The notes under the pieces are model-generated. The model did not search any database and had not been told where the DNA came from. It worked only from the letters and a program-made list of their open reading frames with translations. A program made the translations under genes and the position numbers. Shown in pieces: positions 15,781-63,610 of a DNA stretch of 64,000 bases (its first letter is position 1; each line of letters begins with the position of its first letter). The stretch is from Torpedo marmorata (Eukaryota), in contig OZ360250.1 of the NCBI GenBank assembly GCA_977017645.1, forward strand, positions 25,606,001-25,670,000, in the 5' to 3' direction.

Positions 15781-16011
15781 ACTCCAACCTGGACCAACCT
15801 GCAATGCACAACCTTGTTATACCATGGAGCTATACTGCAAGGAAACAGGCTCTTCAGCCCATTATTCACAGACACACCAAAGTATCTACTTCTGAGCCAG
15901 TTCCATTTGCCTGTGTTTGGCCCACATACCTCCAAATCTTTCCTATCCACGTACCTGCCTAAATGTCTTTAAACGTTGTAAAATCCATGAAGACAATGAC
16001 CACCATCATGC

Positions 16012-16717
16012 CCTTAAGTTCTTGGGAGTCACTACCTCAGACCCAACACACTAATGGCATCGTCAAGAAAGCATGTCAGCGCCTCTACTTCCTCAGGAGT
16101 TTGCGGAGGTTTGGTATGACATCAAAAACCCTAGCAAATTTCGACAGATGTGTGGTGGAAAGTGTGCTGACCAGCTGCATCATGGTCTGGTATGGGGACA
16201 CCCAATACCCCTGAGCATAAAGCCCTCCAAAAGGTAGTGGACACAGCCCAGGACATCACAGGCAAAACCATCCCCACCATCGAGAACATCTACAGGGAAC
16301 ACCGTCGTCGGAGAGCAGCAGCAATTATCAAGGATCCACACCACCCAGCACACGTTCTGTTCTCGCTGCTAACATCAGGAAAGAGGTATAGGTGCCACAA
16401 GACGCACCACCAGGTTCAGGAACAGCTGCTACCCCTCCACCATCAGACTCCTCAATGACAAACTCAATCAGGGACTCATTTAAGGACTCTTATTTTTGCA
16501 CTTTATTGATTTTTTAAAATTCTCTCTGTATTGCACAGTCAATTTCTTTACATTTCGTTATCTGTTTACAGTTCTTTATTTGTTTACATGTGTACATTGT
16601 GCACAGTTGTTTTTGCACTACCAATAAGAGGTAATTCTGCCTCGCCTGCAGGACAAAGAATCTCAGGGTTGTATGTGATGTCATGTATGTACTCTAATAA
16701 TAAATCTGAAATCTGAA
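16012..16717 (+). mobile_element. Rex1/Babar LINE 3' fragment
   Basis: KKACQRLYFLRSLRRFG...ESVLTSCIMVWYG and KDPHHPAHVLFSLLTSGKRYR are typical of the Rex1 C-terminus; tail aataa(atctgaa)2. Confidence 0.88.
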
Positions 16718-16926
16718 ACTAATCCTTGATTACCTCCTCGGAAAACTCAGTCAAATTTGTGATCAGTAAGTTTACAGATGCCGGAAAGACTGGCGGAGTT
16801 GCAGATAGTGCGGAGGATAGTATCAGTCTTCATATCAATGTGTCAGTTCAATGAGTTGAGAAATGGCGGATGGAGTTTAATCACTATTTCCATCCACAGG
16901 AGTTAGGAAGAGTTAATCTTCCTAAG

Positions 16927-17721
16927 TTACTGAGTTACAATGGCGGCACTGGTGTGGACCCGCGGGGAGCAAGGGAGAGGAGATGCAGCGCTCCCGCGGG
17001 GTCCAGCCGCCCAGTCGTTGAGGTAGCCGATGGTGGTTTTATTTGAAATCCCGCGACCGCGGGGTCTGCGCCCAAGATGGCAGTGCCTATTAATCGGCAG
17101 CAGCCACAGACTCCAGGGAAGTGGAGGACTGGAGCAGGGCACCAGAGGGCAGAAAGATCACCCCCGTCTGAGAAGGAGAAGCAAAGGAGACGACCCTCGG
17201 GACGGTGACCACGGTGGTGAACCGGTGAGGGGCTCTGAGGCTGAAGGACCACTGCATGCGGCGGGCTGCTGGCGACTCGAGGCGAGGAACCCGCGGAGGC
17301 TGTGGGCTGCTGGAGACTGCTGTCGGGGGACTCACGCCGGGCTGCGGACTGCTGGAGGCTGGCTCGAACTGGCTGGAGGATTACCAGGTATCGGAACCGG
17401 GATGCGAGGGGGTGCCGAGGGCACCGAAGGGTTCCTGACCGTGTCGGAGGTTCGGATCTGGAGCTCGGGTTGTCGATGGTTTGGACTGGACTCTGTGTGG
17501 CTGCGGAGGCTGCGGAAGCGCTGGAGGCAAATCTACGGACACTCGGTGACTCTGGGGGGGATTCTCTTTTGCTTCTCTTTCTCTGACTGTAAGGAATGTA
17601 AGAGGCGCTTAGGCAATTTCTGCCGGTGGCGAATCTGTCTGCCTTGCAGCAGGCAAAAAGAAATTTCAAGGAATATGACACTGTTTTATTACTATGACAA
17701 TAAATTGAATCTTGAATCTTG
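16927..17721 (+). mobile_element. Non-coding, non-autonomous retroelement: GC-rich head + Rex1-like tail
   Basis: AAGATGGC at 17074-17081; tail 17597-17721 aligns with the SINE tail at 48763-48886 and ends gacaataaa(ttgaatc)2; homologous copy at about 40.0-40.6 kb. Confidence 0.72.
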
Positions 17722-20555: not shown

Positions 20556-22005
20556 TCATCTGCTGTAACCTTGGTTTTGGTTGACATGGCACCACCTCCC
20601 AGATCTAGGTCTCCTATATTTACCTTGAACATTTGCTCCCTCTGTGTAATCTAACTGTGGACCAACATCCAATGTTGGATGAGTTCAAATTTTATCTAAC
20701 TAAGCCTTGGGAAAATCGAAGTGATTCCTTTGGTTCCTGTCATTGATTCTATTCCGTTCTTTCAATTAAATCTCATGTTGAACCAGACTATCATTCTCAG
20801 CCAATTACTAGTAAATGTAGGAATCCTTCTTTACAAAGAGGATCATGGGACAGTAGTTGTGCTGGACGGAAGCAAATACTATCATCATCACAAGAGATTT
20901 AGTATTCAGCAAATTAATGGGGCAAAAGTCTACTGGATGGCCTGTGTCCTAGAATCCTAAAAGAAGTAGCTACCAAGGTAATGGATGCATCATTTATATC
21001 CTCCAAAAATCCTTAAATTCCAGAAGTAGATCAGACTGTGGAATAAGAATCGTCAGTTTTCTATCCAGACCATTGAATAAAAAAAAGAGAAGAATAAACG
21101 TGGAACTCCTATAAGATGGTAATTAGTTAAAAATTATTGAACTTATTTGAGTATTGGATGATACCATGCAAGGGGAATAGAAAAACACTGGATCCACAAG
21201 CATTTATCAGGATTGGTGAGATTTTACATATAACGTAGAACACTACAGCACAGTACAGGCCCTTTGGCCATCGATGTTGTGCCGACCTATATATTCCTAC
21301 TGAAAAATTATTCAAGATGGGTTCTCAAAGTATAAGAGCAGAAGAGAAGGTATTTGATCATGAAAAAAAATTAATCCAACAGATCATGTGACCTGTTTTC
21401 TGTTCATGGTTCAATTATGTTTTCAAATTCAATAGGATTAAAGGGAGAAGATATCAAGAAACAACAGAATGGTTTGAGTGATGGGACTAGGTTAATTGAA
21501 ACTCTATAGAAGAACATTTCCAAATTGATCAAGTAAAACAGGGATGGTGAAGAGCTGAATAAAACAAAGGACTTGGTTAATCGAGGTCTGACAGGAAAAT
21601 CTGGCAGCAACAGATAGGCAGGATTGTGGAAGTATTGGGGATTATTTTTTAAAGGAAAACATCACCATTACTCTTCAATTGGCAGTATTGCCTTACTTAA
21701 TGAACTTTGCCATGAATAAAGGGCCTTAAGGCTCCTGGACACTACACCACTTCAGGTTTATTGGACCTGACAATGCTCCATACGCTGCTCTTTTTCTGCA
21801 CTTCATTTACCCGCCCCATCTCAAAATGCCAAATACATCCATAACTGGAAACAGTAAAGCCTTGTTCAAGTAATAGAAGTTGAAAAACAAGCTCTGAAGC
21901 CAACTTCAATTGAAACTAACTAGAATCCTGATCTCCTCACCTCTGAAGATTGATTAAAGTTTAATAAGTTTCATGTTTTTTTTCCCCCCAAATTTAATTT
22001 TCCAG

Positions 22006-22267
22006 GACAACCTCCAGAAATTCCTCCCTGGCTCTGGTGTTGTGCTGAAGACTGGGCCAGGTGGTATCCAGGTAATTGGAGAGGTGAACTCCAAATTCCA
22101 AAGTGGGTACAGCCATTCTGGAACACATTCAAAGGGCGCAGCACCAGCACCGTACCCAAAACCTCAGCATCTTGCCGCTGTCTCTGGGATCATTGGGAAA
22201 CAAGGAAGTGGCCAAGGAGATGGAGGGAGCGGAGGGGCTGGCGGTCCAGAGGGAAGTGGGGTTCAGG
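22006..22267 (+). CDS. MYOZ1: Myozenin-1 coding exon 3 (Gly-rich)
   Basis: DNLQKFLPGSG...GSGQGDGGSGGAGGPEGSGVQ; acceptor tttccAG 22004-22005; donor G|GTAAGC; phases 0/1. Confidence 0.92.
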
Positions 22268-23589
22268 GTAAGCATGTGAATTAGGTTCACCTTTCAAACA
22301 CTGAATAGACTTTGCAGAACTTACTTAGAAGAGAGGATGAAAGAGTGAGTAAGATTACACTGGAACCTTGTCAGTAAATACTGAAGTACTCTGAAGCAGT
22401 ATTAGCTATTCCACCTCATGATGCATATTTGCATGGTAGGGAAGGATAGATGGGCAAACAGTGAGCAGGCAATTCAGAGGAAAAGAAGAGATGGTTTTGT
22501 TGTGTCAGTGTTGGGAGCCTATCCATCTCCACAAAATTCTAAAAGTGTTTGAAGATTTTAACCTTTCCCCAGAGTCTCCATTCCAGAGACCTTTGAAGTC
22601 TACCGAAGACTTGGAAATGCCAATGAGCATTGATCATCATATGACTTGAATATTAGAATAAAGTCTACATTTTACACAGCTAGCAAAGCTGCAGTGAAAA
22701 TAAAGACTATAACCAATTTCAAATTGGTTTGAACGCATGATGTTCAGTTACGAAATTGGTTAACATCGGATGTGTTGGTTCCATAAAATATGTGCAGTAA
22801 TGTTAACAGACTACTTTACATTACATTGAATGTCAATGCATCTCCTTTATCAATCAATGCACAGAAGAAACCCAAATTGAACCTATGAAAATTGGGAAGA
22901 CATTCAGCACCAATTTAGAAACAAGGTTTTCCCCTCAGTGTTGACAATGACCAAGGAAAGAGTTGTTTTTTTTTTCTGTTGCACTGAGTTGTTGAACAGG
23001 TGAACTTAAAAGAAGTGCAACTTTAACAAAATGCTATATCAGGAGTTTGGTTGGCATGAGAATTTGGTGCAGAGCAAAAAGAGAAGTTGCTTTATCCCTC
23101 CAATAGATGATGATTTACGCAAGCATCAGGAAGTTAAGTACAGTACAGGTATTTGCATTTTATCGAGAGCTTATATGCGTTAAACTGTTTTCCTTAAGAT
23201 AAAGGTGGATACATAGCATTGAATATATTTACAATAGCTCAGCAATAGTCGAAAACAAGTAAATAGAAGCCTCAGCTGATATATAAAATAAATATTGGGA
23301 AATGAAAACTTAACAAAAATAATCTGTGTCTGATGTTAAGAATAATATTACTTCAAAAGAAAAGGCTGATAATGTTGTCAAGAAGAGTAGTAAACCTGAC
23401 GATTTGGGTAAAAGGTAACAGTGAATAATTTAAAAAAGAAAAAGGAAGAAATAGATTATAAATAAACAAAAATACATAAAAATAGTTAGAAATTTTAAAT
23501 CAGTAAAAGGAAGAGTAATGATAGTTAACATTATAATGTGAATTGTTTGAGCATTAACTAAATATTTTGTATTTATCTTCATGCAGAAG

Positions 23590-24980
23590 AAATAATAAGT
23601 GGAACAATAAGGGTTTTGGTAAAAATAATTACTATCACAAAAGATAAGGTACAGGAGGAAGTAAGGGGATTGAAACTAAACAAATCTGCATCTGATAAAC
23701 TACCCAGTTTTTAAAAAATCTGTCTGTGGAATAGCTGAATTAGTGATACTTCAAAATTCCTTAGGTTCTGGAACTGTTCCAGTAGTAAATACAACACTGC
23801 ATTTTAAGAAGAAAGTGAGAAAATGTAAGAAACTACAAATCTGTTACCCTGGCATATGTTGTCATCTAAACATTGGAATCTATTATTATGAATGTTGTAG
23901 TTGGTATAAGGTGGATTATATTTTGATTACGTAGAGGCAACATGCCTTGAGATTTGATAAACCTTGTACAATTTTTAGAGGTTGGAATTTTGGCAGGAAA
24001 AGTAATAGATGACATTTTCAAAATGGAATAATTAGGTACCGCACTATAGTTATTAAATGAAACCAGGATTATTGGGAATGAATAGAGGATTGATTAATGG
24101 ACAGAAAACATAATAGGAATAAATGGGTCCGATTCAGGATGCCACATGGATCACTGTGGGGCCCTACGTTTTCACAATTTATATTAAAAACGTGTGAAAA
24201 ATCACTTCTCCCAAGTACGAAACTCGATGCAACCAGCAGGCAAAACAGCTCCAAAGGGATACAGATTATTTATGCAAATAGTCAATAACATGAAATATAA
24301 TGTGCCGTGCAATTAGAAAACAATATTTTTCAATGGTGTAAAACTAGTAAATTTTGGTATACAGAGGTATGCTAATTCATGAACGAAGATAATAAGTATG
24401 CAAAGAATTAGGAAGGCACATGTCATGATAGTCTTAACACGAGAGGGTTGGAATGCAAAAGAAAGGAAGTATTTCTAAATTGTTTAGGACTTTGCAGAAG
24501 TCTCAGACAAGTGTGCAGTTTTGATCTTTGTTCCCAAAGAAGGATCATTTTGATAGATTCATTGGAATGATAGGGTTGTCTAATGAAGAAAGATTGAGTA
24601 AGGTTGGCCCATACTCAGGTGTTAAAAAATATGTGATCTATCTGGGAAATGCATTCTGAGAAGGATTGATATAGTAGATGCTGAAAGAAGGTTTACTCCA
24701 CTTGGCGAATCTACTAGAACAAGGAGGCATATTCTCTGAAACTGAGATTTCTTTATATGACCCCTGCAATTTACCTTAAGTTGAGTGAATTCAATCAAGA
24801 CTAAGGTGATAGGGTTCTGAACACAAAAGAATATAGGTACAGGTGGTGGTAGGTGATATCATGTGTGTACTCTGACAATAAATATGAACTTTTCAACTTT
24901 GGGTTGTGGAAATGGGAATTGAGGACCTGTAGTTTGAGATGTGGAATCAATCATATTATTGATGCTGGAGCAGACTTGAG
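23590..24980 (+). mobile_element. Heavily degraded CR1-like LINE
   Basis: Residual RT-like 'MPHGSLWGPTFSQ' and CR1-type 3' sequence. Boundaries approximate. Confidence 0.5.
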
Positions 24981-25198
24981 AGATTATATAACCCTCATCT
25001 AATTTATGTTTTGTTCTTTTAAGCACAGAAAGGTGTAAGTGGATTTGCAATGTGCACTGTCACATAAATGAGTACTGGCACATCTCTACTGTCCTGGTGA
25101 TCAGCACTATGTGAGCTGGAATGTTAAAATGGCATCATGTTAAAAACCACTGGCCATTCAGCCCCTCACTTTTTATGATGGTGTTTGCTCCCTGACAG

Positions 25199-25385
25199 GT
25201 GCAGGTGATGATAAGAAAGGAGCTGGAGGAGGAGGCGGCAAAAAATACACATCGATAATCAAAACCTATGTGTCACCCTGGGAACATGCCATGGGGAATG
25301 ATCCGGAGCTGAAGTCTACCATGAGTCTTCACATGGAACGACCAGGCGCTGCACCAAAACTTCATGCTTACAAGTGTTTCAACAG
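25199..25385 (+). CDS. MYOZ1: Myozenin-1 coding exon 4
   Basis: Manual translation gives GAGDDKKGAGGGGGKKYTSIIKTYVSPWEHAMGNDPELK...AYKCFNR (KTYxSPWE and FNR motifs). Acceptor ctgacAG; donor AG|GTGAGG; phases 1/2. Confidence 0.93.
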
Positions 25386-25959
25386 GTGAGGCTTCTGGCA
25401 TAAAATGAACAGACGGAGTCAGAACTACACAGCCCAGGACATAACATTGAGGGAGATTTTTCACCTTCACCCCCTTTGATGATTATTTGTCCAGTGTAGG
25501 TGATGAAGCCAAATGTGATCAGAGAAGCAGGTACAGGGGAGGTGAAGTGTTGCATTTGGGCAGGAAATCCACTCTGCCTGGAATGAAAGTGAAAATTACA
25601 CTACCTTTCATTTCCCCCAACTTACTCCATGCTATAATTTCACACCAACAATTACTACCATTTTAGTACCCCCCTCAGTTTGTTATTTTATTGGCACTTT
25701 CAAGAACCAATCAGATTCAATAAATTCATTGGTGAGCAATTAGAACTGTCCTGGTAGTGTTAGAATTAAATAAATCCACTTAAAAATGGTCAACCACATT
25801 TAAGCTCTGGCAACCAGCTCCCCAGTAAAATAGTTTAAGGGAGTTTTACAATTGCTCAGTCAGCCACCTAGTGAAAAATCTTGTTCTGTACTTGGCAAAA
25901 GTTGGTAGAGCACTGAAGATCAGTTCATCAATATCACAAGGATTAATCACCTTGGAACA

Positions 25960-27990
25960 TTACTGAATGCTTCAAAGGCTTCCAAAAATAATATTTAAAA
26001 TAAATATCACCATCTGTTGCCCTTGACATTGAGGAAGAATGAAAAATATTGGAAATGCTAAGCATAGCGAGAGAAAATATTGTAATGCATCTAGCATTTT
26101 TAAAAGTGGATAAATAACCAGGCTTGGCCAAAATGTATCTCAGACTCTTGTAAGAAGCAAAGGAGGAAATGGCACTGACTATCATTTTCCAATTCTCCTT
26201 GGTTGGAGGCATTAAGCGAGATAAATCAGCACAAATCAACATTTGGAATGGCACAGGTTAGTCAAGGACAGTCAGAATGGATTTGTTAAGAGTACATCCT
26301 GTTTGAATCTGACTAATTATGTTGAAATTTTTTGAGGAAGTAGTAAGGAATATGGATGAGTAATTTTGATGGCAAAACCCGGCATGGCAGACTAATCACA
26401 ATGTAAAAACCCATGTGGTCAAGGAATGTTACATTTTTTTTCAGTAGTAAAGGGTACGAGAGCTTTTGTAATTGGAGGCTACAACAGAAAAGTTCTATGG
26501 ATTCACTTTTCCTTTGTGGCACTCCTTGATAACTGGGACTTAAATGCAGAGACTGTGATTAGGAACTTTGCCAATGATCTCAAAACTGGCAATTTGGTTA
26601 AAACTATAGAAGATTCGAACCAGCAAGAAAATATCAATCAACACAAATATGATATATGGAATTCAGTCCAGAGCATTGTGAGATAATGATTTTGAGCAGG
26701 GCAAACAACTAAAGGGAGTAGGTAAAAATAATAGAATACCAAGAAGTACTGAGCAAAATTGGGATCTTGGAAGCGCACTCCACAGGTAAGGTAGTTAATA
26801 AGACATTGGTGATATTTTCCTTAAGTGCTTCAGGCACACAGTATAAATGTAGAAGGCCATGCTAGAACTCAAAGAAAAAAATTAGTTCGGCTGTAGTAAG
26901 AGTATTATTGTAAAGAGTATTATTTACAGTTCTGGTCACCGCACAACAGGAGGGATATGATAACACAAGGGAGATGCTGAGGAAAGGTAAAGGTTCCATT
27001 ATTGTCACGTAATACTACATTTAGAATGTAACATACATGAAATTCTTTAATTTTTGTCTACCATAAGGCAGACAGAGAGTCACTACTTTGTCCAGCGCCC
27101 CTCACAGAAACCTACAGCACCTGGTGTTCCTAGGCGATCTCCCCTCCAAGTACTGACCAGTCCTGTGCCTGCTTAGCTTCCGAGATCAGACAATCCCAGT
27201 CGTAGTCAGGCTATTGGTGCTGTACAATTATATTAACAGGATGGAGAATTATAGTTATATGGAGAGACCAAATAGGCTATTTTCTCTGGAGAAAAGAGGC
27301 TGCAGGCAAATTTAATTGAGGTGTACAAAGTTATGAGAGAACTATTAGGCACAGTGGTGCAGCTGTTTGGTCTGCTGTCTCAACACCAGAGACCTTAACT
27401 TCAGTTGCTATCTGTTTTCAATTTGCATGTTCACCCTGTGACAATGTGGGTTTCTTCTGGGTGTTCCATTTTCCTTCCATGATCCAAAGACATGCGGGTT
27501 CCTTGCCCCTAGTATGTAGGTGAGTAGTAGGATCTGGGGGAAGGTGAGAAGAATGTGGGGAGAATAAAATAAAACATTAATTTAGGATTTGTGTAAAATG
27601 GGTGCTTGATGGCCATTGTAGACTCACTGGGCGAAAGGATTTGCTTCCATGCTGTATCTATCTATTTAAAAATACAGATAATATGAATAGGAAGAGACTT
27701 CTCCTTTAGTTGTTAATAACAAAGAGACTTAGGTTTAATTTAATTTAAATTAAAAGAGAAGTTGACAAAATGTTAGTGAGAGTCTGAAGCTCACTGCCTT
27801 AAACGGTGATGGAGGCAGAAAGTCCCATCTCGTGTACAGTATTAGAAACTAGTGAGCACTACCTGCTGTAAACAATCAGGTTACGGACTGAGACCTGGGA
27901 AGTGGAAGTAAGCCAAGCATTCATTGCATCCATACCCATACAATGGGCTGACTGGTTTTCTTGTGCCCTAAATTTCTAAGATTCTCTGAA
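25960..27990 (+). mobile_element. Degraded CR1-like LINE hosting a 5S-SINE and a V-SINE (about 27345-27665)
   Basis: Residual CR1 RT motifs (cagaatggatttgttaag...aaattttttgaggaagta; tttgccaatgatctcaaaactgg). Confidence 0.55.
26983..27213 (-). mobile_element. 5S rRNA-derived SINE (SINE3 type) with Rex1-like tail
   Basis: 27108-27213 reverse-complements to tagcctga..gtctgatctcggaagctaagcaggc.cagg.ctggt.agtacttgga.gggaga.cgcct.ggaa.accaggtgctgtagg, i.e. 5S rRNA lacking about 14 nt at the 5' end. It is followed by a 125-nt tail ending ggaacctttaccttt. Confidence 0.9.
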
Positions 27991-42047: not shown

Positions 42048-45012
42048 CGTCAAGTCACCTTTATTTGTCGTTCATTACCATATACACAGTAAGACGAGAT
42101 AGCGTTTCTCCAGGACCATGGGCAGATGTACATAAATATCATAATACAATAGAAAAACTATAACATGCTAATACACATACATATCTAGGAATTGAGGAGC
42201 CTGATGGCTTGGGGGAAAAAACTGTTGCAGTCTGGACGTGCGAGCCCGCGTGCTTCGGTACCTCCTTCTAGATGGCAAAGAGGAAAACAGTTTACCAAAG
42301 GGGTGTGATAAGTCCTTCACAATGTTTTTAGCCTTCCTCATGCATCGTGTGTTGTAAATGTCTGTCATGGTGGGGAGAGAGACTCCAATAATTTTCTCCG
42401 CTGCCCTCACTATCCTCTGCAGGGTCTTTTGGTCCGAGGTGGTACAGTTTCCAAACCAAGCGGTAATGCAATTGCTCAGAATACTCTCAATGCATCCCCT
42501 GTAGAATGTAGTAAGGATAGGGGGTGGGAGATGAACTTTCCTCAGTCTTCGCAGGAAGTAAAGATGCTGCTGGGCTTTCTTGACTATGGAACTGGTGTTT
42601 AGGGACCAGCTGAGACTCTCCGCCAAGTGCACTCCAAGAAACTTGGTACTCTTTACGACCTCAACGGTAGAGCCGTCCATGGTCAAAGGAGAATGATTCC
42701 CCCCGGGCCCTTCTGAAGTTGACAACCAACTCTTTTGTTTTGTTCACGTTCAGCTGCAGGTTGTTGTTTCCGCACCATTCCATTAGCGACTGCACCTCAT
42801 CTCTGTATGCTGACTCATCATTCTTACTGATAAGGCCCACCACGGTTGTATCATCAGCAAACTTTATGATGGGATTCGAGCTGTGTTTTGCTGCACAGTC
42901 ATGAGTCAGCAGGGTGAACAGCAATGGACTAAGCACAGAGCCCTGGGGAGCCCCCGTGCTCAATGTAATGACCTTGGAAGTGCTGTTTCCAATCCGGACT
43001 GCCTGAGGTCTTCCCGTCAGGAAGTCTAGGATCCAATTACAGAGGGTGTAGTTTAGGCCCAGCCCGCTCAACTTCCCTATCAGGTACTGAGGTATGATCG
43101 TGTTGAATGCCGAGCTGAAGTCAATAAACAGCATTCGAACATACGCGTCCTTATTTTCCAGGTGGGTGAGGGCTAGGAGGAGGGTGGTAATGATGGCATC
43201 ATCTGTGGAGCGGTTTGATCTATATGCAAACTGCAGGGGGTCCAGTGAGGGGGGCAGCAGAAGCTTGATGTGCCTCATGACGAGCCTCTCGAAGCACTTC
43301 ATGACGGTGGATGAGAGTGCGACAGGGCGGTAGTCATTGAGGCAGGACACCGTCAACTTCTTCGGCACGGGGATGATGGTAGCGGCTTTGAAGCACGTTG
43401 GAACCACGGCACTGCTCAAGGAGATGTTAAAGATGTCGGTGAGAACATCAGCCAGCTGGGCCGCACATCCCCTGAGAACTCTGCCGGGAATGTTATCTGG
43501 CCCAGCAGCTTTCCGCGGGTTAACCCCGCCTAACACTCTCCTCACGTCGGCCACTGTGAAACACAGCACCTGTTCATTTGGAGGAGGGGTTGTCTTCTTT
43601 GCCACTACATCGTTTTTTGCCTCAAAACGCACGTAGAAGTTGTTCAGTGCATCTGGGAGGGAGGCATCACCAGCACAGTCAGATTGCCCTTCAACATGCG
43701 TCGCGTGTCCTTGCTGTCCTGAAAGTGACTCTGAATTCGCTGGGCCTGTGCACGCTTTGCCTCCTTGATGGCCTTAAACAGCTTGGCTCTTACAATAGCT
43801 AAGGTCACCTTGTCACCCGCACTGAAGGCAGAGTTTCGGCTCCTCAGCAGCACACGCACCTCCGCAGTCATCCATGGCTTCTGATTAGAGTGAGTAATGA
43901 TGGTTTTGGGCACAGTGACTTCGTCAGTACACTTACTAATGTAGCTAGTCACCGATGCCGTATACTCCTCCAGATTGATGCAGTCGCCATCGGTTGCTGC
44001 TTCCCTGAACATGTGCCAATCAGTGCGCTCAAAGCAGCCCTGAAGTGCATGGATGGCACCTGCTGGCCAGGTTTTAACCTGCTTCCGAACTGGTCTGGAG
44101 CATCTGGCGAGCGGTCTGTATGCTGGGGTTAGCATTACTGAGATATGGTCTGAGTATCCGAGGTGGGGGCGGGGCTCCGCCCGATACGCACCGGAAATGT
44201 TCGTGAACACAAGATCCAACGCGTTCGCTCCTCTCGTAGCAAAGTCCACATACTGATGAAATTTTGGTAGCCCTGTCTTGAGGTTCGCCTGGTTGAAGTC
44301 GCCAGCGATAATCAGCAGTCCATCAGGGTGTGCGGTCTGCAGTCTGCAGTTCGCCTATAGCCCCACACAGTTCCCAGATCGCCTCCTTGGCATTAGCACT
44401 GGGGGGGATGTACACTCCAACAAGAAGGACCGTGGTAAATTCCCACGGTAGGTAAAATGGTCTACATCTTACAGTCACAAATTCCACCAATGCTGAGCAG
44501 TGACTGGAGACTAGTACAGACTCCTTACACCATTCTGTGTTGATATAAACACACAAGCCACCGCCACGGACTTTTCCACAGAGAGCAGCATCTCTGTCAG
44601 CCCTAAATAAAGTGAGTCCATCCAGCTGAATGGCGGCGTATGTGACCCTGTCGCTGAGCCACGTTTCCACAAAGACCAACACACAGCAGTCCCTGTACTC
44701 ATGCTGTGCAGACTCTGGAGTCGGATGTGGTCCATTTTATTCTCCAGGGAACAGACGTTGGCGAGCAGAATGGACAGGAGAGCCAGGCGGCAGGGGTTTG
44801 CTCTCAGTCTAGCGCGCACCCCCCGCTCGCTTCCCACGCTTCCTCCATCTCGCACACCGCTTTCGTCTTCTCCGCGATCCCGAGGCTTTAAAGCTTAATC
44901 CCCGCAGCAGCCCGTGGTCGCTCAGCCTGACCCGCAGATCTTCCCGGAGGTAAGTAGACGAGTTTCTGAGCATTTTTAGAAGCAGAAAATTGTAGTTACG
45001 CCAGGTAACCAT
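42048..45012 (-). mobile_element. Near full-length Rex1/Babar LINE (APE + RT, frameshifted)
   Basis: [43 protein letters not shown] (APE); [38 protein letters not shown] (RT), split over several ORFs. Confidence 0.93.
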
Positions 45013-45769: not shown

Positions 45770-46724
45770 ATTTCAGACGCCGAGTGATTCGCGGTTTGAA
45801 CGTGCCTGATGTCCGAAAGGGCTGGATCATCTGCAGCGTGTCGGGGCGCGGGAGGCTGCGATCGTCGCGCTCCACGGTGGTCGAGGCACGTTGACCCCTG
45901 ACCTGGCTGGAGAGGGAGAGGGAGGGGGAGTGTTAGTGACTCGGGTGGCATCAACCCCCTCTCATCACCCGGCTTCTCTCAGTACTCTCCATCCCTACCC
46001 TTACAACCCACCCTCAGGGACCTTTCTATTCCGTTCAAGCACTTCCCCCGACGTTCCCACCTCCTACACCCAAATTCCCGCAAATTGTTGCCCTTTCCTT
46101 CATCCATCTTCCCCAATTCTTCTCACCCCATTCCCTCTCATGTCTACACCCACATACCCCAGTCTGCCTCCAACTCCTTCCCTCCTCCCTCCCATCCACA
46201 CCCTCCTCCCCTCCCATCCACACCCTCCTCCCCTCCCATCCACACCCTCCTCCCCTCCCATCCACACCCTCCTCCCCTCCCATCCCCTCCTCCTCCCCTC
46301 CCATCCCCTCCTCCTCCCTCCCATCCCCTCCTCCTCCCTCCCATCCTGTCACCTCTTCCTCCCGTCACCTCTTCCTCCCGTCACCTCTTCCTCCCTCCCA
46401 TCCCGTCCGTCTCCTCCTCCTCCCTCCTATCCCCTCCCCTCCCCCCTCCCCCCTCCCCCCTCCCATCCCCTCCCCTCCCCTCCTCCCCTCCTGTCCCCTC
46501 CTCCCCTCCCATCCCATCCCCTCCTCCCCTCCCATCCCATCCCCTCCTCCCCTCCCAACCCGTCCCCTCCTCCCCTCCCATCCCGTCCCCTCCTCCTCCT
46601 CCCTCCCATCCCGTCCCCTCCTCCTCCCTTCCATCCCGTCCCCTCCTCCTCCCTCCCATCCCGTCCTCCCCTCCCATCCCGTCCTCCCCTCCCATCCACA
46701 CCCTCCTCCCTCACATCCCATACC

Positions 46725-46787
46725 CTCAGTGGTTAGAGCACTGGTCTTGTAAACCAGGGGTTGTGAGTTCATTCCTCGCTGGGGTCT
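46725..46787 (+). pseudogene. 5'-truncated tRNA-Thr(TGT) sequence serving as a SINE head
   Basis: CTCAGTGGTTAGAGC A CTGGT-CT-TGT-AA-ACCAG GGGTT GTGAG-TTCATTC-CTCGC TGGGGTCT; anticodon at 46748-46750; 5' acceptor strand missing and T-loop altered. Confidence 0.88.
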
Positions 46788-46916
46788 CACCAATGTGAGG
46801 GGCGCTGGACAAAGTAGCGACTCTCTGTCTTCCTTACGGTAGACAAAGTTAAAGAATTTCATGTATGTTACATTCTAAATGTAGTATTACGTGACAATAA
46901 ATGGAACCTTTAACTT
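46725..46916 (+). mobile_element. tRNA-Thr-headed SINE with the same tail as the 5S-SINEs
   Basis: 46794-46916 is nearly identical to 48763-48886 and to the reverse complement of 26983-27105. Confidence 0.88.
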
Positions 46917-48142
46917 CCCATCCACACCCTCCTCCCCTCCCATCCACACCCTCCTTCCTCCCATGCCATACCCTCCTCCCCTCCTGTCCCATCTCACACC
47001 CTTCTCCCTCCCATTCTGTATCCTCCTTCCCTCCCATCCCATTCTTCCCTCCCATCCCGTAGCCTCCCTTCCTTCCCTCCTATCCCATACCTCTTCCCTC
47101 CCATCCCATACCTCCTCCCTCCTTCCCTCCCATCCCATACCTCCTCCCTCCCTCCCAGCCAATACCACTGTCCCTCTCATCCTAAACTGCCTCTATGTAA
47201 ATCTTCTACTTCTATCCCTATACCCCTCTCTACCCCAACCAAATGGTACTTATCCTATTGCCCATCCCTATCCCATCTCTTTTCCCTATCTGCCCCCACC
47301 AGTCCCTTGCCGTTCCAATTAATCACCCTTCCACCACTGTACCCCATACCTCCTCCCATCATGTCTCATTCCCATCTCCATATCCCTCCCAGCTCCCATC
47401 TCTGTCCTGTCCCAACTCTGCCTACTCAACCCTCCATCTACCCCATCCTCTGAAGATTCCTTTCTCCCTTCCAAATCCTCCTTCATCACTCCTAGATTAA
47501 GCCCCTCCTTCCCCCCGCAGAGATTAATCACTTCCTTCCTCCCTCCTTCCAATCAATCGCCTCTGCCCTCCCAGATCAATCATTTTTTTATGACCCTTCT
47601 CTCCTTGCTTCCCTTCCTTCCCATTCCCTCCCTTCCACTCACTTTCCACATTCTTTCCTCCTCCCTCTCTCATCAATCCCCTCTTCCCACCTAAATCAAT
47701 CCCCTGGTTCCTCCCTACCCAGATCTGTTACCTCTATGAGTTTAATACATCTCACCTAAAAATGTTTATTTCACCAGAGATGCTGCTTGTCCACAGATTA
47801 TTTCTGGTGTTCTCTGTTTTTATTTTAGGTTTCTAGAATTAGCTTTTTGCTTTTGCATTAAGTGTTGTACTGTAGTCCACAACTCTATTTTAGTTTAGGT
47901 TTAACAGCATGAATATTGAATTTTCTAATTTTAGGTACAGACCCATATGATTCCATTATTTCCATCTCTTCTTCACCTTCTTCTGTACTCAATTTTTTTC
48001 TCTCTTTCTCTAACTTTTCTTGACCCCCTTCCTAATAGTTTCTCCTTCTACCAGTCTCCACCTTTCACACCTTCTCTCCATCACCTCTGGGGCCCCTTCC
48101 CCAGCTTCTTTCCTCTATATATGTATTTTTACCTTTTTACCT

Positions 48143-48733: not shown

Positions 48734-48886
48734 CCTAGGAACACCAGGTGCTGTACGTTTCTGTGAGGGGCGCTGGACAGAGTAGCGACTCTCTGTCTGC
48801 CTTACGGTAGACAAAAATTAAAGAATTTCATGTATGTTACATTCTAAATGTAGTATTACGTGACAATAATGGAACCTTTACCCTTT
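48734..48886 (+). mobile_element. 5'-truncated 5S-derived SINE (second copy)
   Basis: cctaggaacaccaggtgctgta.gtttc (5S 3' end) joined to the tail at the same junction as the 27-kb copy. Confidence 0.9.
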
Positions 48887-51800
48887 AGTCTTTAGTCTTG
48901 ATAAAGAGTCTGGACCTGAAATGTTGACTGCCTTTTATTTTCTATGGATACTGCATTTCTGCTGAGTTTCTCCAGTAATTCTGTGCACTCATTTCTAGCC
49001 ATGGATACTGTTTGACCTGCTGAGTTTCACTAGCAATTCTTTGTTTGCTGACAACAAAACAGCCGGTTGTAGTATTGTAAAATAATTACATTTTTAAAAA
49101 GGGTGTTGTTAAAATGGCTGTCGTATACTTCATCACATTAAATATTTCAAAAAGTTTTAAATAAATTTTTGAAATCTAGATACAACTATATGGAATTAAT
49201 ACATGATATGTGAAGATAGCAGTACACAGATGCATGTGAATATAACTGTGCATATGCCATTTATTAAACCAAATTGAAAGGTTCCTTAAGGCAGGCATGC
49301 AAACATGTTGTCAGTCAACATTAAGTTGACCAGAGAGTTTTCTGTCATTTGCCTTACCCTTGCAAAATATTATCTCAAAGGGTTGTTTGCAAAGAGGTGT
49401 TCTGTGATTTTTTTTTTTGTATTTCATAACTATATTGAAAGTAGTTTTAATGCAAATATTGGGGAATTGGCTTCCTTGATTTCTGCAGCAGAACCACAAC
49501 TCCCATGTAAAAAAAAAACATTTTGTTATCCAGAAAGCATTTTGATAATTCTGAATTGTGACATGGAGTTAGTGAAATTAAGTTTTTATTCATGAATGAA
49601 ATTGCATTTAACTTAAACCTGGACTTCCTAAATTTGTATTTGATGCATTCTTGCATGTCAGCTTGTAAGCATAAGTAAAAGACTACATTTTGTCAGTTAT
49701 TGTCCACAAATAATGTCTCAGAACAATGTGTAACTTGTAGGTGGTAGTATTTTCATTACTGTTCTTGTTCTTCTAGGTGATGGAAGTAACTGGTTTGAAA
49801 GATGCAGTTGAAGGAATTTTGGCGAGTAATTACAGTACATTTTTTATCCGTGGTATACACTAGCAATGTTATAGTGAATATTTAGGTGGAAGATTCGTTG
49901 CCAATCAAGGCGGAGCGCTCTGACCTGGATGGCTTCGAACATGATGAGTTAGAGCTGCATTCATCCCTGGCAAATGATGAGAGCACTCTTGACTTCTAAC
50001 TTAAAGATAGTTGAAAGATCATGGGGAGTTGGATGGTGAATCACTCATTGTAGGTTGACAGCTTCTGTCCTGCCCTGTTGGTGTTATTGTTGACATCACC
50101 GGTCATTTGAGTTTCTGGTTGTTAATGGTGTGGTATTCATCGTGGAAATGCCATTAAATGTTGAGAGAAGATGATTGGATTCCCTTGTTGGGGATGGCTC
50201 AGCATGTATGGAGCAAATGTTATTTGCCGTTTATCAGCCTGAAAGCTGCCAGGTCTTGCTACATGCAACATTTTTTCCTGGGGTTCATGTTTTCCTGAAG
50301 AATTGGAATAAATGACATTCAGCCAAAGCATTATACTTGCCTTCTGAAAATGAGAATGACTTAAATTGCTTCTTACCAAAACTGAAGAGCAAACCTTTTC
50401 GGCAATCTGTTGTGTATGTTTCCAGGGAAAGCGTGGTACCCTGGTGATGCCAACTGTCTTCAGCAAAAACACCACCTTGTTTAAACCACCAATTTGTTTC
50501 TAATTGATTTCTCGCGATGGTGTTTCAGCAGCGTAAATGTTCTAAAAGTGGACCACTCATACCCAAAATGCTGTATTTATTTGAGCACAGTCAACAAACA
50601 CGTCTGTTTGTTCCAGTGTTTGTTGAAGTTGTGGAAAATATAGCTTTATGAGTGTGAAACGAAATGAATGTTATGTTGAATGTTAATTGACGATTCTAAT
50701 AGTACACAAGTTTCCATGAATGCAGTATGAGTTCATTGGAGCATTTGCAAGGAAGATTTAGTTCATTGTGTACTGGAAAAATATACCCAGAAATAGAATG
50801 CTCATCCTGGTTTAAAAAAATTATCCAAAGTAAGAATAAATTAAATGACCAGTTGTATTTTTACAGTTAATAAAAGAAAATTAAATTGTAAACTATTGCA
50901 TGAAGTTTCCAAGATGGTGTTCTACAGTTAGACAACAGTTTCCCAAATTCTCCATTTTCATCCAGGGTCAATTTGTTTTACTCAGAGTATCATTGATATA
51001 AATGTACTTTTAAAATTAATATCCTTCTTGAAATATGAATGTATATCTTTGCATGAAACCAACATATTAGGTTGAGTCAAAAATAAAATAAAATGGTGCA
51101 AAAAGAGTAGCAAATGCAGGAAACAGAAAGTTAAACAGGATCTGTTGACAGAGAAAGCATTAATTAATTCTGACAGACGTAAACTGTTTATCTGTCCGTT
51201 GTGATTGACTGGTATGTTCAGTGTTTCAATCAATTTTAATCTTCAGCTGAATCGGTGCACAATGGTACATTTAGTAAAGAGCAGAATTAAGCAAACCTCA
51301 TAGAATATTAAATTTAATATAGCACAGAAGAAATTGGCAAACTACGGTATATATGTAGTATTCTGATCAGGCATGGAACTCTGGTTACCAAGAAACAAGA
51401 CAGATATCAAAATATATGACGTGATGCAGAGAAGAACCAGAAGGCTGATAGGGGAATATAAAGAATAACTTTTATTTACATCATGCCTTCTGCATTACAG
51501 AGCATCCCAAGGTGCTTCACAGATTTGTAATAAGACAAACATTGACACTGAGACAAAGGAAAAGAAAAGCTACATTTTAAAGAGGGGCATGGAGAGAAGT
51601 GGTGGAGAAAGGTTAATGGAAGAAATTCCCAAACTTAAGGCCCAGACAAGGGGATGAATAAAGGTCAGAGGAACCCACATATCCGGTGTTGTAGAATTAC
51701 AGGAAGCAAGTAATAAGGAGGCATGAAATCATGGAGAAAATTTAACATGAGGCATTAAATTGGGGCATTAAATGGGCAAAAAGGCCATTTGTGATGTGAG

Positions 51801-59302: not shown

Positions 59303-62300
59303 TGTAAGAGCTGTAGGCCCATTAACTTACCTTGCTGCGGCGCTCCGGCGCCTCGTCGGCTTCTGGAGCGCTCGCGTTGTCAGCCAGGGCCGTCGTCGGC
59401 CCGTTCTGTGCTCTGCGCATGCGCTGGAGTGCCGACGGGCGCATGCGCAGTATGGAGTGACGTCATTGTGCGCGTGGGAGGCTGGGAAATGTAGTATGCG
59501 CGGTGGAGGGTGCGCAGAGCCATTAGGAGTGACGGAGGAGGCGCGAAGCTTCTAGAAAAAAGGAAGGAATGAGATGTTAGGAGGGTGAGTGAGGTCTCCA
59601 CATCTTTATTGACCATTTTAGACGTTTTACATCGTTTTAGATAGTTTTACATTGTTTTACATCATTTCAAGAACTGTTTATATTAAAGTCACTTGAAGAT
59701 TACTGCAAGTCAAATGTAAATAAAGGTTTTTGAACATTTTGGACTTTGTTGGTAAATTGATTAAAACGCGTCAAAGACAAGGACCACACTTAGCCTCCAG
59801 GTGACTATTGGAGGATCGAAGTCACCGTAATATAGTCAATAAAGAACTGGCTGTTTTTGGAACAGAAAAATTGAAGAATAGAAGATAGAAAAAACTCTCT
59901 GTGCTTTGGACTGATATTTAAAATGGTGGCCATCTTGGAGATGCCTCGAGTTGGGGGCAGTTTGTAATCCACTTCCATCTGCCGTGAATAGCAACCAAGG
60001 GATTTAAAGCTTCAAATCTCATATTAAAGTGTCCTATAAATACGTTGGAGAAACCATTTTCTGGAAAATCAGTGATATTAGTGACGGATGTTGTGGTTGA
60101 AACTCGTTTGTGGATTGCAGCACATTACAGTCATTTGAAGTGGTTGGCATAAGTCTGTGGACTCCTGTGTATCTTTAGCAAGTAAGAACACAGATTGGAA
60201 TTGCTGCCGCTGGTCCATTGGGGACTGTTGTTTGGCTAGTGTTGTGTATGCTTAAAGGAAAGAGGAACTAGACGAGTAAAATGGCCGCAGCAGCCACTGA
60301 TACAGCAGCTACTGATATATCAGCAGCTGGCGCAGCAACCGCTGATGTTGCTGTTGAGGACCAACGTATTGAAGACATGAAGGTTTCGGATATTAAAGAA
60401 GAATTGAAGCGACTGAAAAAGGACATAAGAGGAAATAAAAAGGTTCTTATCGAAAGATTGAAGCAGTCAAAGGATGAAGAGGCAGCTTCATTAAATGAAC
60501 AAGAAGATAACTTGGAAATGGCTGAAATTGTGTCACCAAATGATGAAGAAATTGAAGTGGTTGATGATGCAAAGGATATACAATTCGAATTGGATAAAGA
60601 GGTAAGTATGAAGACAACATATGAACTGCAGGACGAAATACAAGCAAGTGACAGTGTCTCAAATGCTGTAAGCAGGAGAAGCAAAAGAAGTTCTGGTTCG
60701 AGCTCCAGAGTTTCTCGTACTTCAAGTTCTGCATTGTCACGTACAGAGATTGAAGTTGACTTGGCCGCTCTTCTTGCACAACAAAAAACGCTTAAGAATA
60801 AACATATTTTAGAACAAAAGGAGGAGCAGCTAAGACAAAAGGAGGAGCAGCTAAGACAAGAGAAGGAGCAGCTAAGGCAGATAAAAGAACAGCAGGAGCT
60901 GGAAGCAAACATTGCAATTGCCAAGGCAAAAAAGAAAGCAATAGAAGGCTCAATGGTATCTGGTGCTAGCAGTAAATTATCTAAATTGTCTGATAATAAA
61001 GGGTCATATTTAAAAAAGGAGTCACAGGAAAAGAAACCAACCAAAAGGATAGATATTTTAGAACCAAGAATACAAAACTTACATATACAAGGACAAACCT
61101 TTCAAGAGCATATTGGTATCGAGTCACATGTACCAATAGTAACATCTGAAAGCAAAGCTGCGGCTTGGGTTCGGTCGAACGAAGCAGCTTCTTTGTTATA
61201 TGAGTCAAGCATCAGAAATATGGAAGAAACTACACCAGTGAGGTTTCCAAATACATTGCATGCAACAAGAGACGGTGAACAGAGCAATGTATTGTCATCC
61301 AAGGAAAGACAAAATGAAATTGCTGCATCATTGTTTCAGTTACAGTCTCTCTCTTCTTTACCCAAGAAAGAGATACAAACTTTTGATGGTGATCCACTTC
61401 AATATCAATCATTTATGAGATCTTTTAAACACAATATTGAAGATAAATGCCAAGATCGTGATGAATGTCTTTATTATTTGGAAATGTTCACAAAGGGACA
61501 TCCAAAAGAAGTGGTAAAGAGTTGTAAACATATGTCTTCAGAAAGAGGATTAGACAAAGCTAAGGCTTTACTGGAACAATATTTTGGCAACAAGCATCGA
61601 ATTGCTTTAGCTTATATGGATAAAGCTCTTAAATGGACATCAATAAAACAAAATGATGTAAAGGCTCTGCAAGAATATACTCTGTTTTTAAGAGGATGTA
61701 ATGCTATGGAAGAAATCGATAATATTCGTGAGCTTGAAGTGCATAGTAATATGCGAATCATCTTAGAAAAATTACCTTACAAGTTATGGGATAGATGGAG
61801 AAATTTGGCTTGTGATTTACAAATAAATTACAGTCGAAAAATTGCCTTAAAGGATTTGGTAAATTTTCTTGAACGACAGGTGTACGTTGAAACAGATCTA
61901 CTATATGGAAATACCAGAGATAATTCTATGGGCAAAGATGTAAGGAAGTCTAACACACAGTCTAGTCCGAAAGTGAAAAGGAGTACTTTTGCTACTAATG
62001 TGCAAGTTATAAGTAAAGAAAAGGACAAAGTAAATAAGGAAAAGGAAAGTTTGCCTAATGAAAAGAGTTGTTTGTTCTGTAAAGGTGGACATACTTTGGA
62101 AATGTGTTTACGATTGGAAAAGAAGGAACATAAGGAAAATATCGCTTTCTTAAAGGAAAATGGAATATGTTTTAGCTGTCTGTGTAAAGGACACATCAGT
62201 AAAAACTGCGAAAAGCGAATTAATTGTAACATATGCAATTTGAAACATCCTAGAATTTTGCATATCCATAACAGAAACAAGGAATTGGAAAAGGAAACAA

Positions 62301-63610
62301 CAGAAAATAATGTTATAACCTCGGATCAGACAAGTGGTCTTACTGGGGCCGGTGTGAATAACTGCAAACTTTCAATAGTGCCTGTACAATTCAAGGCCAA
62401 GAAAGGGGATGTAATAGTTAAAACATATGCATTTTTAGACCCAGGCAGCACTGCATCTTTTTGCACGGAAGGACTAATGAATAAACTTAATATTCAAGGA
62501 AAAAGATCAAGAATTATGTTAAAAACCATGGGACAAGAAAAGGTTGTTGAAACTAACATTGTTTCAGGCTTAGAGGTTGCTGGATTGGATGACAAAAAAT
62601 TTTGTGATCTTCCAAGTGTATATACTCAGAAGACTATGCCTGTGAATGAAGGAAATATTCCTCATCAAAGGGATATCCATCATTTAGCTTATCTGTGGAA
62701 GGTTTATTTACCTGAAATTAATTCTGAAATAGAAATGCTGATTGGTTCAGATGTGCCAAAGGTTTTGGAACCGAAAGAAGTAATAGAGAGTAAAAGGAAT
62801 GGACCTTACGCTGTTAGAACCAAGTTTGGTTGGACAATCAATGGACCACTGGAAAGAAATAATGATATTGCTCAGGAACAGTTCGCGATAAATATTAATA
62901 GAATTTCGGTTGTGAAAGTTGAATAGTTAAGCGAAGAGCAAAAAACTGTGAATAAGAAAATCACTTTTGAAGAAAAGAAAACAGATCAATGTGAAAATAA
63001 ATCAATGGTATTTAAAACAACATTGAAAGAATTAATTTCGTCAGAAATAGATGAAAGTGAAATATTAGAAGATGTTGCAGATAATACCATTGATTATTCA
63101 TGTGTAATTGAATCAAATACAGGAATAAAACAAGTGACTGAAAACAAATCTGAATGTAGATTTTGTAGTTCAGAGAATACAACAGACAAAGCTAATGAAG
63201 AAATATTGCAATGTGATGTAAAACTGGAAAACACAGAAAATTGTGCTGATGGAATAAAGAATAATGTGAATGATAATCTAATGCAATTGAATTCAGAGAA
63301 CAAAATGTTGAAAGGGGAATTGGAAATATTAGATAATCAAGAAAACAGTAAACAGAAAGATTTAATTGTAAGTAAAACTCGCAAAGTCAGAAAGCGGAAG
63401 AAAAGAATAACTGCTGAAGAAATGAATACAGTTATTGAGGAAAGAGATTCAGCATTATCAAAATGTAAAAGGTTGGAGGAAGAGATTAATATTTTAAAAG
63501 AGAACAAGTTATTGGTTAATAACACAAAACAGGTGACTTTAAAAACCAATCAAAAATGTAAATTGAATGTTCAACAATTAACAATGCAGAAAGAATGTGA
63601 TATTACACGG
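59303..63610 (+). mobile_element. BEL/Pao LTR retrotransposon, 3'-truncated (putative 5' LTR about 59303-59832), inserted in an old CR1
   Basis: Starts TGT; AATAAA at about 59719; BEL-type gag-pro ORF follows. CR1 RT sequence breaks at 59302 (..tctggaatcaaacatgg) and resumes at about 63611 (gtgtagtattctaaattc). LTR end is inferred because there is no second LTR. Confidence 0.8.
60281..62926 (+). CDS. BEL/Pao Gag-protease polyprotein with N-terminal SAP-like motif (881 aa)
   Basis: FDGDPLQYQSF Gag region; three Cys/His knuckles (CLFC..H....C, CFSC....H....C, CNIC...H...LH); aspartic protease AFLDPGS; GPYAVRTKFGWTING; SAP-like MKVSDIKEELKRL..DIRGNKKVLIERL. Confidence 0.88.
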   Translation: MAAAATDTAATDISAAGAATADVAVEDQRIEDMKVSDIKEELKRLKKDIRGNKKVLIERLKQSKDEEAASLNEQEDNLEMAEIVSPNDEEIEVVDDAKDIQFELDKEVSMKTTYELQDEIQASDSVSNAVSRRSKRSSGSSSRVSRTSSSALSRTEIEVDLAALLAQQKTLKNKHILEQKEEQLRQKEEQLRQEKEQLRQIKEQQELEANIAIAKAKKKAIEGSMVSGASSKLSKLSDNKGSYLKKESQEKKPTKRIDILEPRIQNLHIQGQTFQEHIGIESHVPIVTSESKAAAWVRSNEAASLLYESSIRNMEETTPVRFPNTLHATRDGEQSNVLSSKERQNEIAASLFQLQSLSSLPKKEIQTFDGDPLQYQSFMRSFKHNIEDKCQDRDECLYYLEMFTKGHPKEVVKSCKHMSSERGLDKAKALLEQYFGNKHRIALAYMDKALKWTSIKQNDVKALQEYTLFLRGCNAMEEIDNIRELEVHSNMRIILEKLPYKLWDRWRNLACDLQINYSRKIALKDLVNFLERQVYVETDLLYGNTRDNSMGKDVRKSNTQSSPKVKRSTFATNVQVISKEKDKVNKEKESLPNEKSCLFCKGGHTLEMCLRLEKKEHKENIAFLKENGICFSCLCKGHISKNCEKRINCNICNLKHPRILHIHNRNKELEKETTENNVITSDQTSGLTGAGVNNCKLSIVPVQFKAKKGDVIVKTYAFLDPGSTASFCTEGLMNKLNIQGKRSRIMLKTMGQEKVVETNIVSGLEVAGLDDKKFCDLPSVYTQKTMPVNEGNIPHQRDIHHLAYLWKVYLPEINSEIEMLIGSDVPKVLEPKEVIESKRNGPYAVRTKFGWTINGPLERNNDIAQEQFAININRISVVKVE

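What the first reader, a model, noticed from the sequence alone, without database searches (positions are those of the whole stretch)
46725..46916. Head-swapping SINE system: one tail fused to either tRNA-Thr or 5S rRNA
Seen: the same approximately 123-nt tail (TGTGAGGGGCGCTGGACAAAGTAGCGACTCTCTGTCTGCCTTACGGTAGACAAA...GTGACAATAA(A)TGGAACCTTTA) occurs three times. At 46794 it follows an almost complete tRNA-Thr(TGT) plus a CACCAA linker. At 48763 and at 27105 (minus strand) it follows the 3' end of 5S rRNA. In all three the tail starts at the same TGTGAGGGG. Known: 5S (type 1) and tRNA (type 2) heads are different internal Pol III promoters and define SINE3 versus SINE2. Inference: RT template switching onto abundant Pol III RNAs has made young sister SINE families from one module, so SINE birth or promoter swapping is visible in the sequence. 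I cannot tell whether this family is already catalogued.
Basis: partly seen in the sequence, partly recalled or inferred. Interest (0 to 1): 0.85.

Follow-up and report, generated by a model that had tools for sequence, protein, structure and literature searches.

The report
SINE swapped 5S head for tRNA
Two young jumping-repeat families in this fish-like genome share one 121-base tail behind either a 5S rRNA head (about 20,000 copies) or a threonine-tRNA head (about 2,800); a handful of relic copies suggest the tRNA family likely arose by replacing the 5S head, a kind of swap already described in other animals.

Summary
Confirmed, and not a one-off. The tail occurs 9,182 times as an exact 28-mer; the first 100 hits carry 91 5S heads, 9 tRNA-Thr(TGT) junctions and no third head. 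Estimated copies: 17,000-27,000 5S-headed (SINE3), about 2,800 tRNA-headed (SINE2), both 1-2% from their own majority sequence. The window's CACCAA linker is a mutated form of a CACCTC subfamily (318 matches); the main linker is CATTTC. The tail is not a free module: it is the last ~120 nt of an older, ~820-nt, ORF-less non-LTR repeat (at least thousands of copies). The best reading is sequential, not twin birth: a 5S head was fixed on this tail long ago (19-21 changes from the 5S gene), then replaced once by a near-intact tRNA (2-4 changes). About ten relic 5S copies carry the tRNA family's tail. Template switching, Pol III transcription and a Rex1/Babar partner LINE are inferred, not shown. 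5S/tRNA sister SINEs are known (Ped-1/2, CoeSINE4/5, HaSE1/3, SlmI/OS-SINE1), so this is a new, unusually well-resolved member of a known kind. Repbase and Dfam could not be checked.

The parts
46725..46787 (+). tRNA-Thr(TGT)-derived head, nt 11-73 (5'-truncated), SINE2 copy
   Evidence: family majority differs from genome tRNA genes L206/L211 at C48T and A58T only
46788..46793 (+). linker CACCAA, two changes from the CACCTC subfamily linker (main family: CATTTC)
46794..46916 (+). shared tail, tRNA-family type (TCTTCC, AAAGTT), ending in ACCTTT-type repeat; inserted in a C/T-rich minisatellite
48734..48761 (+). last 28 nt of 5S-derived head (5'-truncated SINE3 copy)
48762..48888 (+). shared tail, main 5S-family type (TCTGCC, AAAAATT)
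27107..27224 (-). nearly full-length 5S-derived head with box A, IE and box C
26983..27106 (-). shared tail, main 5S-family type
16925..17720 (+). copy of the ~820-nt ORF-less repeat family whose 3' end gave the SINE tail (a sister subfamily with (ATCTTGA)n end; ends approximate)
16002..16700 (+). 3' fragment of a LINE with PF09004 domain (Rex1/Babar type, clade name recalled); same kind of 3' end; candidate partner clade only

Best explanation
These are two real sister SINE families on one tail, and the tRNA-headed family likely arose once from an older 5S-headed SINE when a reverse transcriptase, probably of a Rex1/Babar LINE, switched from the SINE RNA onto a tRNA-Thr RNA at the run of U that ends the 5S part. 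Steps. (1, shown) The tail is the last ~120 nt of an ~820-nt ORF-less non-LTR repeat. (2, inferred) A 5S RNA was joined to it long ago, giving a Pol III type-1 promoter; head and tail have since drifted about 16-18% and 12-14% from the 5S gene and the donor, with the promoter boxes kept. (3, shown) 5S-headed copies exist on every tail state: donor-like, tRNA-type and the young main type; tRNA heads sit almost only on one of them. (4, inferred) In that branch the head was replaced by tRNA-Thr(TGT), keeping TTT of the 5S end in the junction. (5, inferred) The fixed A58T change may be a misreading of m1A58 during capture and would also remove a block to later reverse transcription and tRNA-like cutting. 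(6, shown) Both families then spread without target-site duplications, with variable 5' truncation and 0-6 ACCTTT-type end repeats; in this genome the 5S family burst last.
For: Counts; estimates. Head-tail linkage in the first 141 distinct copies: readable 5S copies 64 of 64 TCTGCC, readable tRNA copies 42 of 43 TCTTCC. Donor: 30 loci with the same 3' end, variably 5'-truncated, 30 more with one sharp 5' end, most running on as ~820-nt units; tail vs donor majority 14-16 substitutions in 117-118 nt; one donor copy (L184) has the exact tail start internally. Head ages: 19/115 and 21/116 changes from the genome's 5S gene vs 2/73 from its tRNA gene. Relic 5S heads closer to the gene (C28, A32, often T62): 7 of the 9 found by head-only patterns carry the tRNA-type TCTTCC tail (8 of 10 overall) vs 0 of 30 head-anchored main copies. 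Intermediate 5S copies: 6 of 19 have the donor state AAAAGTT vs 0 of 30 (p=0.002). In organism G the donor states dominate (98-99% of laid depth at two tail sites) and a contig bridges 5S head and tail. All 30 sampled 5S head ends lead into this same tail. Pre-tRNA-Thr with its trailer is also fused to the 5' end of another repeat twice (L208, L212), so such captures happen here.
Against: The oldest-looking sampled copies are tRNA-headed: distal-tail divergence 2.0% (GTGG subfamily, 25 copies), 1.7% and 1.3% vs 1.1% for 9 relic and 0.8% for 40 main 5S copies (relics are few and partly picked by likeness). One tail site (G to A at position 24) is shared by the main 5S and main tRNA subfamilies and needs parallel change or recombination; one relic head sits on a young tail (L468), so relics could be recombinants. 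No tRNA gene with the exact trailer CATTT was found (L211 has TATTT, L206 CGCGC). No excess of truncation at the junction in 26 unselected 5S copies, so an RT stall there is not shown. No autonomous LINE with this tail was found; likeness to seven LINE 3' ends of Rex1 type is weak (SINE best z=2.4, donor best z=5.7, most not significant; no blastn hit). DNA recombination or gene conversion would leave the same junction.
Confidence: 0.68

Rival explanations
1. The tRNA-headed SINE came first, and an already diverged 5S head was brought in from another, now lost SINE3 family (the direction proposed for HaSE3).
For: tRNA-headed subfamilies show the highest copy divergence. One triplicated tRNA-headed insertion has the fully donor-like tail (L246-248). 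The GTGG donor state is mostly on tRNA heads here (27 of 30).
Against: Main and intermediate 5S tails keep two donor states that the tRNA tail has lost. The tRNA head is too close to its gene to have ridden the tail through 12-14% drift. No 5S head of this kind on another tail in 30 of 30. TTT matches the 5S 3' end.
Confidence: 0.15
2. Both heads were captured independently onto a headless short tail RNA or onto the donor, possibly several times.
For: Identical junction point; pre-tRNA and 5S both end in U-runs; several tRNA subfamilies with two linkers exist; 12 headless copies start at the junction.
Against: The two tails differ at about 3 sites while both differ from the donor at 14-16, so they share a long history after leaving it; the 12 headless copies all carry the main 5S-type tail, as truncations would; no third head found; all tRNA subfamilies share T58.
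Confidence: 0.12
3. One family is not a transposing unit but a pile of one-off chimeric retrocopies (RNA fused to a repeat tail at each insertion).
For: Such chimeras occur in this genome (L208, L212).
Against: Heads carry shared changes absent from the genes (T58 in 91 of 96 readable copies; 19-21 changes in 5S heads), fixed junctions, and subfamily-linked tail sites.
Confidence: 0.02

Closest known systems
HaSE1 (tRNA) / HaSE3 (5S) of Helicoverpa armigera (PMC3272025, passages read)
   Same: tRNA and 5S heads on one 3' region (94% alike there); template switching proposed
   Different: RTE partner; proposed direction tRNA to 5S; here tails differ at ~3 of 121 nt, intermediates survive and the direction is likely 5S to tRNA
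CoeSINE4 (tRNA) / CoeSINE5 (5S) of coelacanth, and Kojima's model of head capture by ORF-less non-autonomous LINE derivatives (PMC5786205, parts 1-4 of 5 read)
   Same: sister SINE2/SINE3 on similar 3' parts; birth by adding a Pol III head to a non-autonomous LINE derivative
   Different: those tails are bipartite RTE 5'+3' UTR; here only the donor's 3' end is used. That paper lists only RTE, Ingi, Vingi and R2 as making ORF-less bipartite elements; the donor here looks Rex1-like at both ends but its parent was not found
Ped-1 (5S) / Ped-2 (tRNA) of springhare; SlmI (tRNA-Leu) / OS-SINE1 (5S) of salmonids; AmnSINE1, SINE3 (5S) / LmeSINE1, SacSINE1 (tRNA) (table passage in PMC3747384)
   Same: both head classes with one partner LINE; the salmonid pair uses RSg-1 (recalled as Rex1 clade)
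   Different: those have bodies (Deu, CORE or RTE 5' part) or share only ~70 nt; here head joins tail directly
HE1, SINE2-1_CM and SacSINE1 of cartilaginous fishes (PMC3747384 table; PMC5499810 passages)
   Same: likely the same animal group (inferred from recalled repeats, not from a call)
   Different: tRNA heads with V, CORE or Deu bodies and CR1/L2 tails; no room for a body here

Membership tests
SINE3 | 5' head derived from 5S rRNA | tested here: met
   Rfam RF00001 44.4 bits; 95 of 116-117 nt match the genome's own 5S gene
SINE3 | type-1 internal promoter (box A, IE, box C) kept | tested here: met
   13/15, 5/6, 15/18 match vs 24/40 in nt 1-40 (box limits recalled)
SINE3 | short, non-coding, dispersed multi-copy unit with shared changes | tested here: met
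SINE2 | 5' head derived from a tRNA | tested here: met
   71/73 to genes L206, L211; ARAGORN of 104 copies tRNA genes
SINE2 | type-2 promoter boxes A and B | tested here: inconclusive
   box A as in the gene; box B has A58T in 91 of 96 readable copies; effect on transcription unknown
SINE2 and SINE3 | transcription by RNA polymerase III | not testable with these tools
   no run on record as RNA was listed
SINE2 and SINE3 | 3' tail shared with a partner LINE | tested here: inconclusive
   tail matches an ORF-less non-LTR repeat; autonomous partner not found
Rex1/Babar-mobilised elements | 3' end like Rex1-type LINEs (GACAATAA + short tandem repeat), no TSD | tested here: inconclusive
   motif shared with PF09004-bearing LINE ends; alignment z 2.4 and 5.7 at best; TSD >=8 nt in 3 of 93, >=10 nt in 0. 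Clade assignment of PF09004 LINEs is recalled
Deu-, CORE- or V-SINEs (SINE3-1, SacSINE1, HE1) | conserved central body between head and tail | tested here: not met
   everything after the head aligns to the donor 3' end; the domain sequences themselves were not compared
Bipartite RTE-type SINEs (Ped-1/2, CoeSINE4/5) | both 5' and 3' UTR parts of the LINE in the SINE | tested here: not met
   tail is colinear with the donor's last ~125 nt only
Catalogued Repbase/Dfam/SINEBase family | match to a deposited consensus | not testable with these tools
   no such library offered

The most novel reading that the evidence does not exclude
A complete promoter swap caught in the act: an ORF-less Rex1/Babar derivative (a clade not listed as making them) gave the tail, a 5S head made it a SINE3, and the LINE's reverse transcriptase then copied a modified pre-tRNA, leaving A58T as a fossil of m1A58 misreading that also lets the RNA escape tRNA processing.
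Probability: 0.2. Interest if true: 0.62.

Novelty: new member of a known kind. Interest (0 to 1): 0.42.

Why it matters
Head swaps are usually inferred from two old consensus sequences. Here both families are 1-2% diverged, differ at about three tail sites, and relic and intermediate copies survive, so direction and order can be tested, and type-1 and type-2 promoters can be compared on one cargo (about 7-10 times more 5S copies). Practical point: half of the tRNA-headed copies score as tRNA genes (52 of 104), on the order of a thousand false tRNA-Thr loci against about three real genes of this type, which bears on reports of unusually many tRNA loci in sharks and rays (bioRxiv 2025.06.08.657570, passages read).

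Tried and rejected
Third heads (U6, 7SL, other tRNAs): none in 100 unselected copies or in all 26 matches of a pattern excluding both junctions (6 tRNA, 8 5S, 12 headless truncations; 20 of 26 scanned with Rfam, 6 read by eye); heads not ending in T-run would be missed by that pattern. Tail as 5S spacer DNA: no hit in 15 array units. 5S head from a variant gene class: the 54 array matches are 5S pseudogenes unlike the head; a second 5S class elsewhere is not excluded. CACCAA as tRNA CCA end: rejected, CACCTC is the common form. 5' leader as pre-tRNA evidence: dropped, leaders vary. A distinct old subfamily behind the 96 donor-like AAAAGTT tails: most sampled heads are main type. RT stall at the junction: not seen. 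Closer donor with ACCTTT end: 1 match. Full-length partner: one family recovered (3.25 kb, single ORF) without tail match; a second only as 5'-truncated copies. A canonical 5S motif gave 0 matches. No RNA holder listed. Earlier scan findings: none. Paper searches listed no description of this family; subscription papers, Repbase Reports and supplements were not seen.

Full report
Observation. The three copies are as described, with one-base offsets and a nearly whole 5S head on the minus-strand copy. The window lies in a 6.2-Gb genome that I take for a cartilaginous fish from recalled repeat types; no call names it.

Two families. The 28-nt tail start has 9,182 exact matches, control 0. Of its first 100 places, 91 have a 5S head or junction and 9 a tRNA junction (59 were classed by exact junction match, 41 by reading; one tRNA-type case, L049, is only a 10-nt junction on a 5S-type tail). 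Exact junction counts are 7,516 for 5S and 666 for tRNA with CATTTC; the 5S head end has 15,454, and 30 of 30 sampled lead into the same tail. The tRNA-type tail variant has 1,847 matches within one mismatch, 30 of 30 sampled tRNA-headed, 22 with CATTTC. Calibrating on 26-30 copies gives 17,000-27,000 and about 2,800 copies. The window's CACCAA has one exact match and belongs to a CACCTC subfamily of 318 matches. Copies are 1.5-1.7% from their majority outside CpG, end in 0-6 ACCTTT-type units and mostly lack target-site duplications (3 of 93 at 8 nt or more, null maximum 2). Seventeen runs of seven organism labels in eight studies hold 41% or more of the sampled words of a tRNA-headed copy; one may be the source sample.

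The tail. A chance neighbour (L088) showed a longer repeat with a homologous end. It is a family with 5,698 and 10,571 first-look candidates, variable 5' truncation, a sharp full-length start at AAAATGGCGG, about 820 nt, no shared open frame and (GAACCTT)n or (ATCTTGA)n ends; copies are 6% from their majority. The SINE tail is colinear with its last ~125 nt, 14-16 substitutions in 117-118, and begins at an internal point of it (L184). A sister copy lies in the window at about 16925-17720. LINEs with RVT_1 and PF09004 (Rex1/Babar by recall) start with AAAATGGCG and end in GACAATAAA plus a short repeat, but alignment support is weak: of seven such ends, one gave z=2.4 with the SINE and three gave z=2.0-5.7 with the donor. 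The partner is therefore likely, not shown.

The heads. The tRNA head majority differs from genes L206 and L211 at C48T and A58T. An older subfamily keeps C48 and has T8C, T63C and often A51G (27 of 30 sampled from 195 GTGG matches). T58 is in 91 of 96 readable copies among 104 (three A58 copies were picked). The 5S head differs from the array gene on C25 at 21-22 of 116-117 nt, mostly in nt 1-40, with the promoter boxes kept; a full-length copy folds with helix I closed and hairpins in the tail (z=-5.3).

Order of events. In the bulk, head and tail type are tightly linked. A search for 5S heads with the gene's T62 turned up two copies with the tRNA-type tail. Head-only patterns for that relic head found 9 copies with tails, 7 with TCTTCC; with one more from a BLAST search, 8 of 10, and 7 of 10 also have the donor's GTGG. 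Nineteen intermediate copies with the relic 5' end and otherwise main head include 6 with the donor's AAAAGTT. In organism G the donor states make up 98-99% of laid depth at two tail sites, both TCTGCC and TCTTCC loose ends occur (18 and 15 contigs), and a contig bridges 5S head and tail; organisms B and D resemble this genome (contig depth is no copy number). So 5S heads span all tail states and tRNA heads occupy one branch. Against this: tRNA-headed copies are the most diverged sampled (2.0%, 1.7%, 1.3% vs 1.1% and 0.8%), one site is homoplastic, one relic is a mosaic, and one triplicated tRNA copy has a donor-like tail. I put 5S-first at about 0.68.

Mechanism. A template switch at the U-run ending the 5S part onto a U-ended pre-tRNA explains the fixed junction and the kept TTT; the nearest gene trailer is TATTT (L211), one change from CATTT, and two other pre-tRNA-Thr chimeras with trailers exist. 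It is inference; DNA recombination fits too. m1A58 is put on pre-tRNA and aids RNase Z cutting (bioRxiv 2026.05.17.725798, abstract only) and causes RT misincorporation (PMC8062790, passages), so A58T may be a misreading, a selected escape, or chance; it is a single base.

Known or new. Sister 5S/tRNA SINEs are in print: Ped-1/2, SlmI/OS-SINE1, AmnSINE1/LmeSINE1 (PMC3747384, passages), CoeSINE4/5 and HaSE1/3 (PMC5786205, parts 1-4 of 5; PMC3272025, passages); head replacement by 7SL in hagfish (PMC7245038, passages, which says vertebrate SINE3 use CR1-clade LINEs). Passages of PMC5499810 and PMC6274825 did not describe this family. Nine paper searches listed none; repeat databases and supplements were not seen. 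Verdict: real, a new member of a known kind, valuable for its surviving intermediates; interest 0.42.

Noticed in passing
L208 and L212 (around 1460-1570): Retrocopies of pre-tRNA-Thr(TGT) of the L209 type, with its 3' trailer, fused to the 5' end of another tRNA-like repeat: two independent chimeras.
   Followed up: partly
L406-L416 (G000 C25, 86.18-86.63 Mb): Many units of the 5S rDNA array hold a 5S pseudogene, a LINE 3' fragment and a tRNA-like piece beside the canonical gene; 54 such matches listed.
   Followed up: partly
L535, L540, L549, L557: Small tRNA-headed subfamily whose linker has four T (a Pol III stop signal, recalled) and a shared extra base in the tail; it spread despite this.
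   Followed up: no
L134-L163, L288-L317; window 16925-17720: Abundant ~820-nt ORF-less non-LTR family with several 3' end types and a YY1-like start (motif name recalled); parent LINE unknown.
   Followed up: partly
L348-L355: Young full-length 3.25-kb LINE with one ~1,030-aa ORF (endonuclease, RT, PF09004), copies 92-98% alike, several with open frames over 1,000 aa.
   Followed up: partly
L061-L069: One 5S-headed copy multiplied with its flanks on nine small contigs beside an intronless 315-aa GPCR-like frame (family by eye): segmental amplification.
   Followed up: no
window 4251-6980 (+): 910-aa open frame, synaptopodin-2-like by recall; weak Calsarcin hit: a large host exon.
   Followed up: no
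window 60272-62923 (+): 884-aa open frame with SAP and DUF1759 domains, likely the gag region of an LTR retrotransposon.
   Followed up: no
window 42664-43773 (-): 370-aa RT frame of another LINE of the same type as 16002-16700.
   Followed up: no
window 46146-47160: C/T-rich minisatellite into which the tRNA-headed copy inserted; its CCCATA unit mimics the tRNA 5' part.
   Followed up: no
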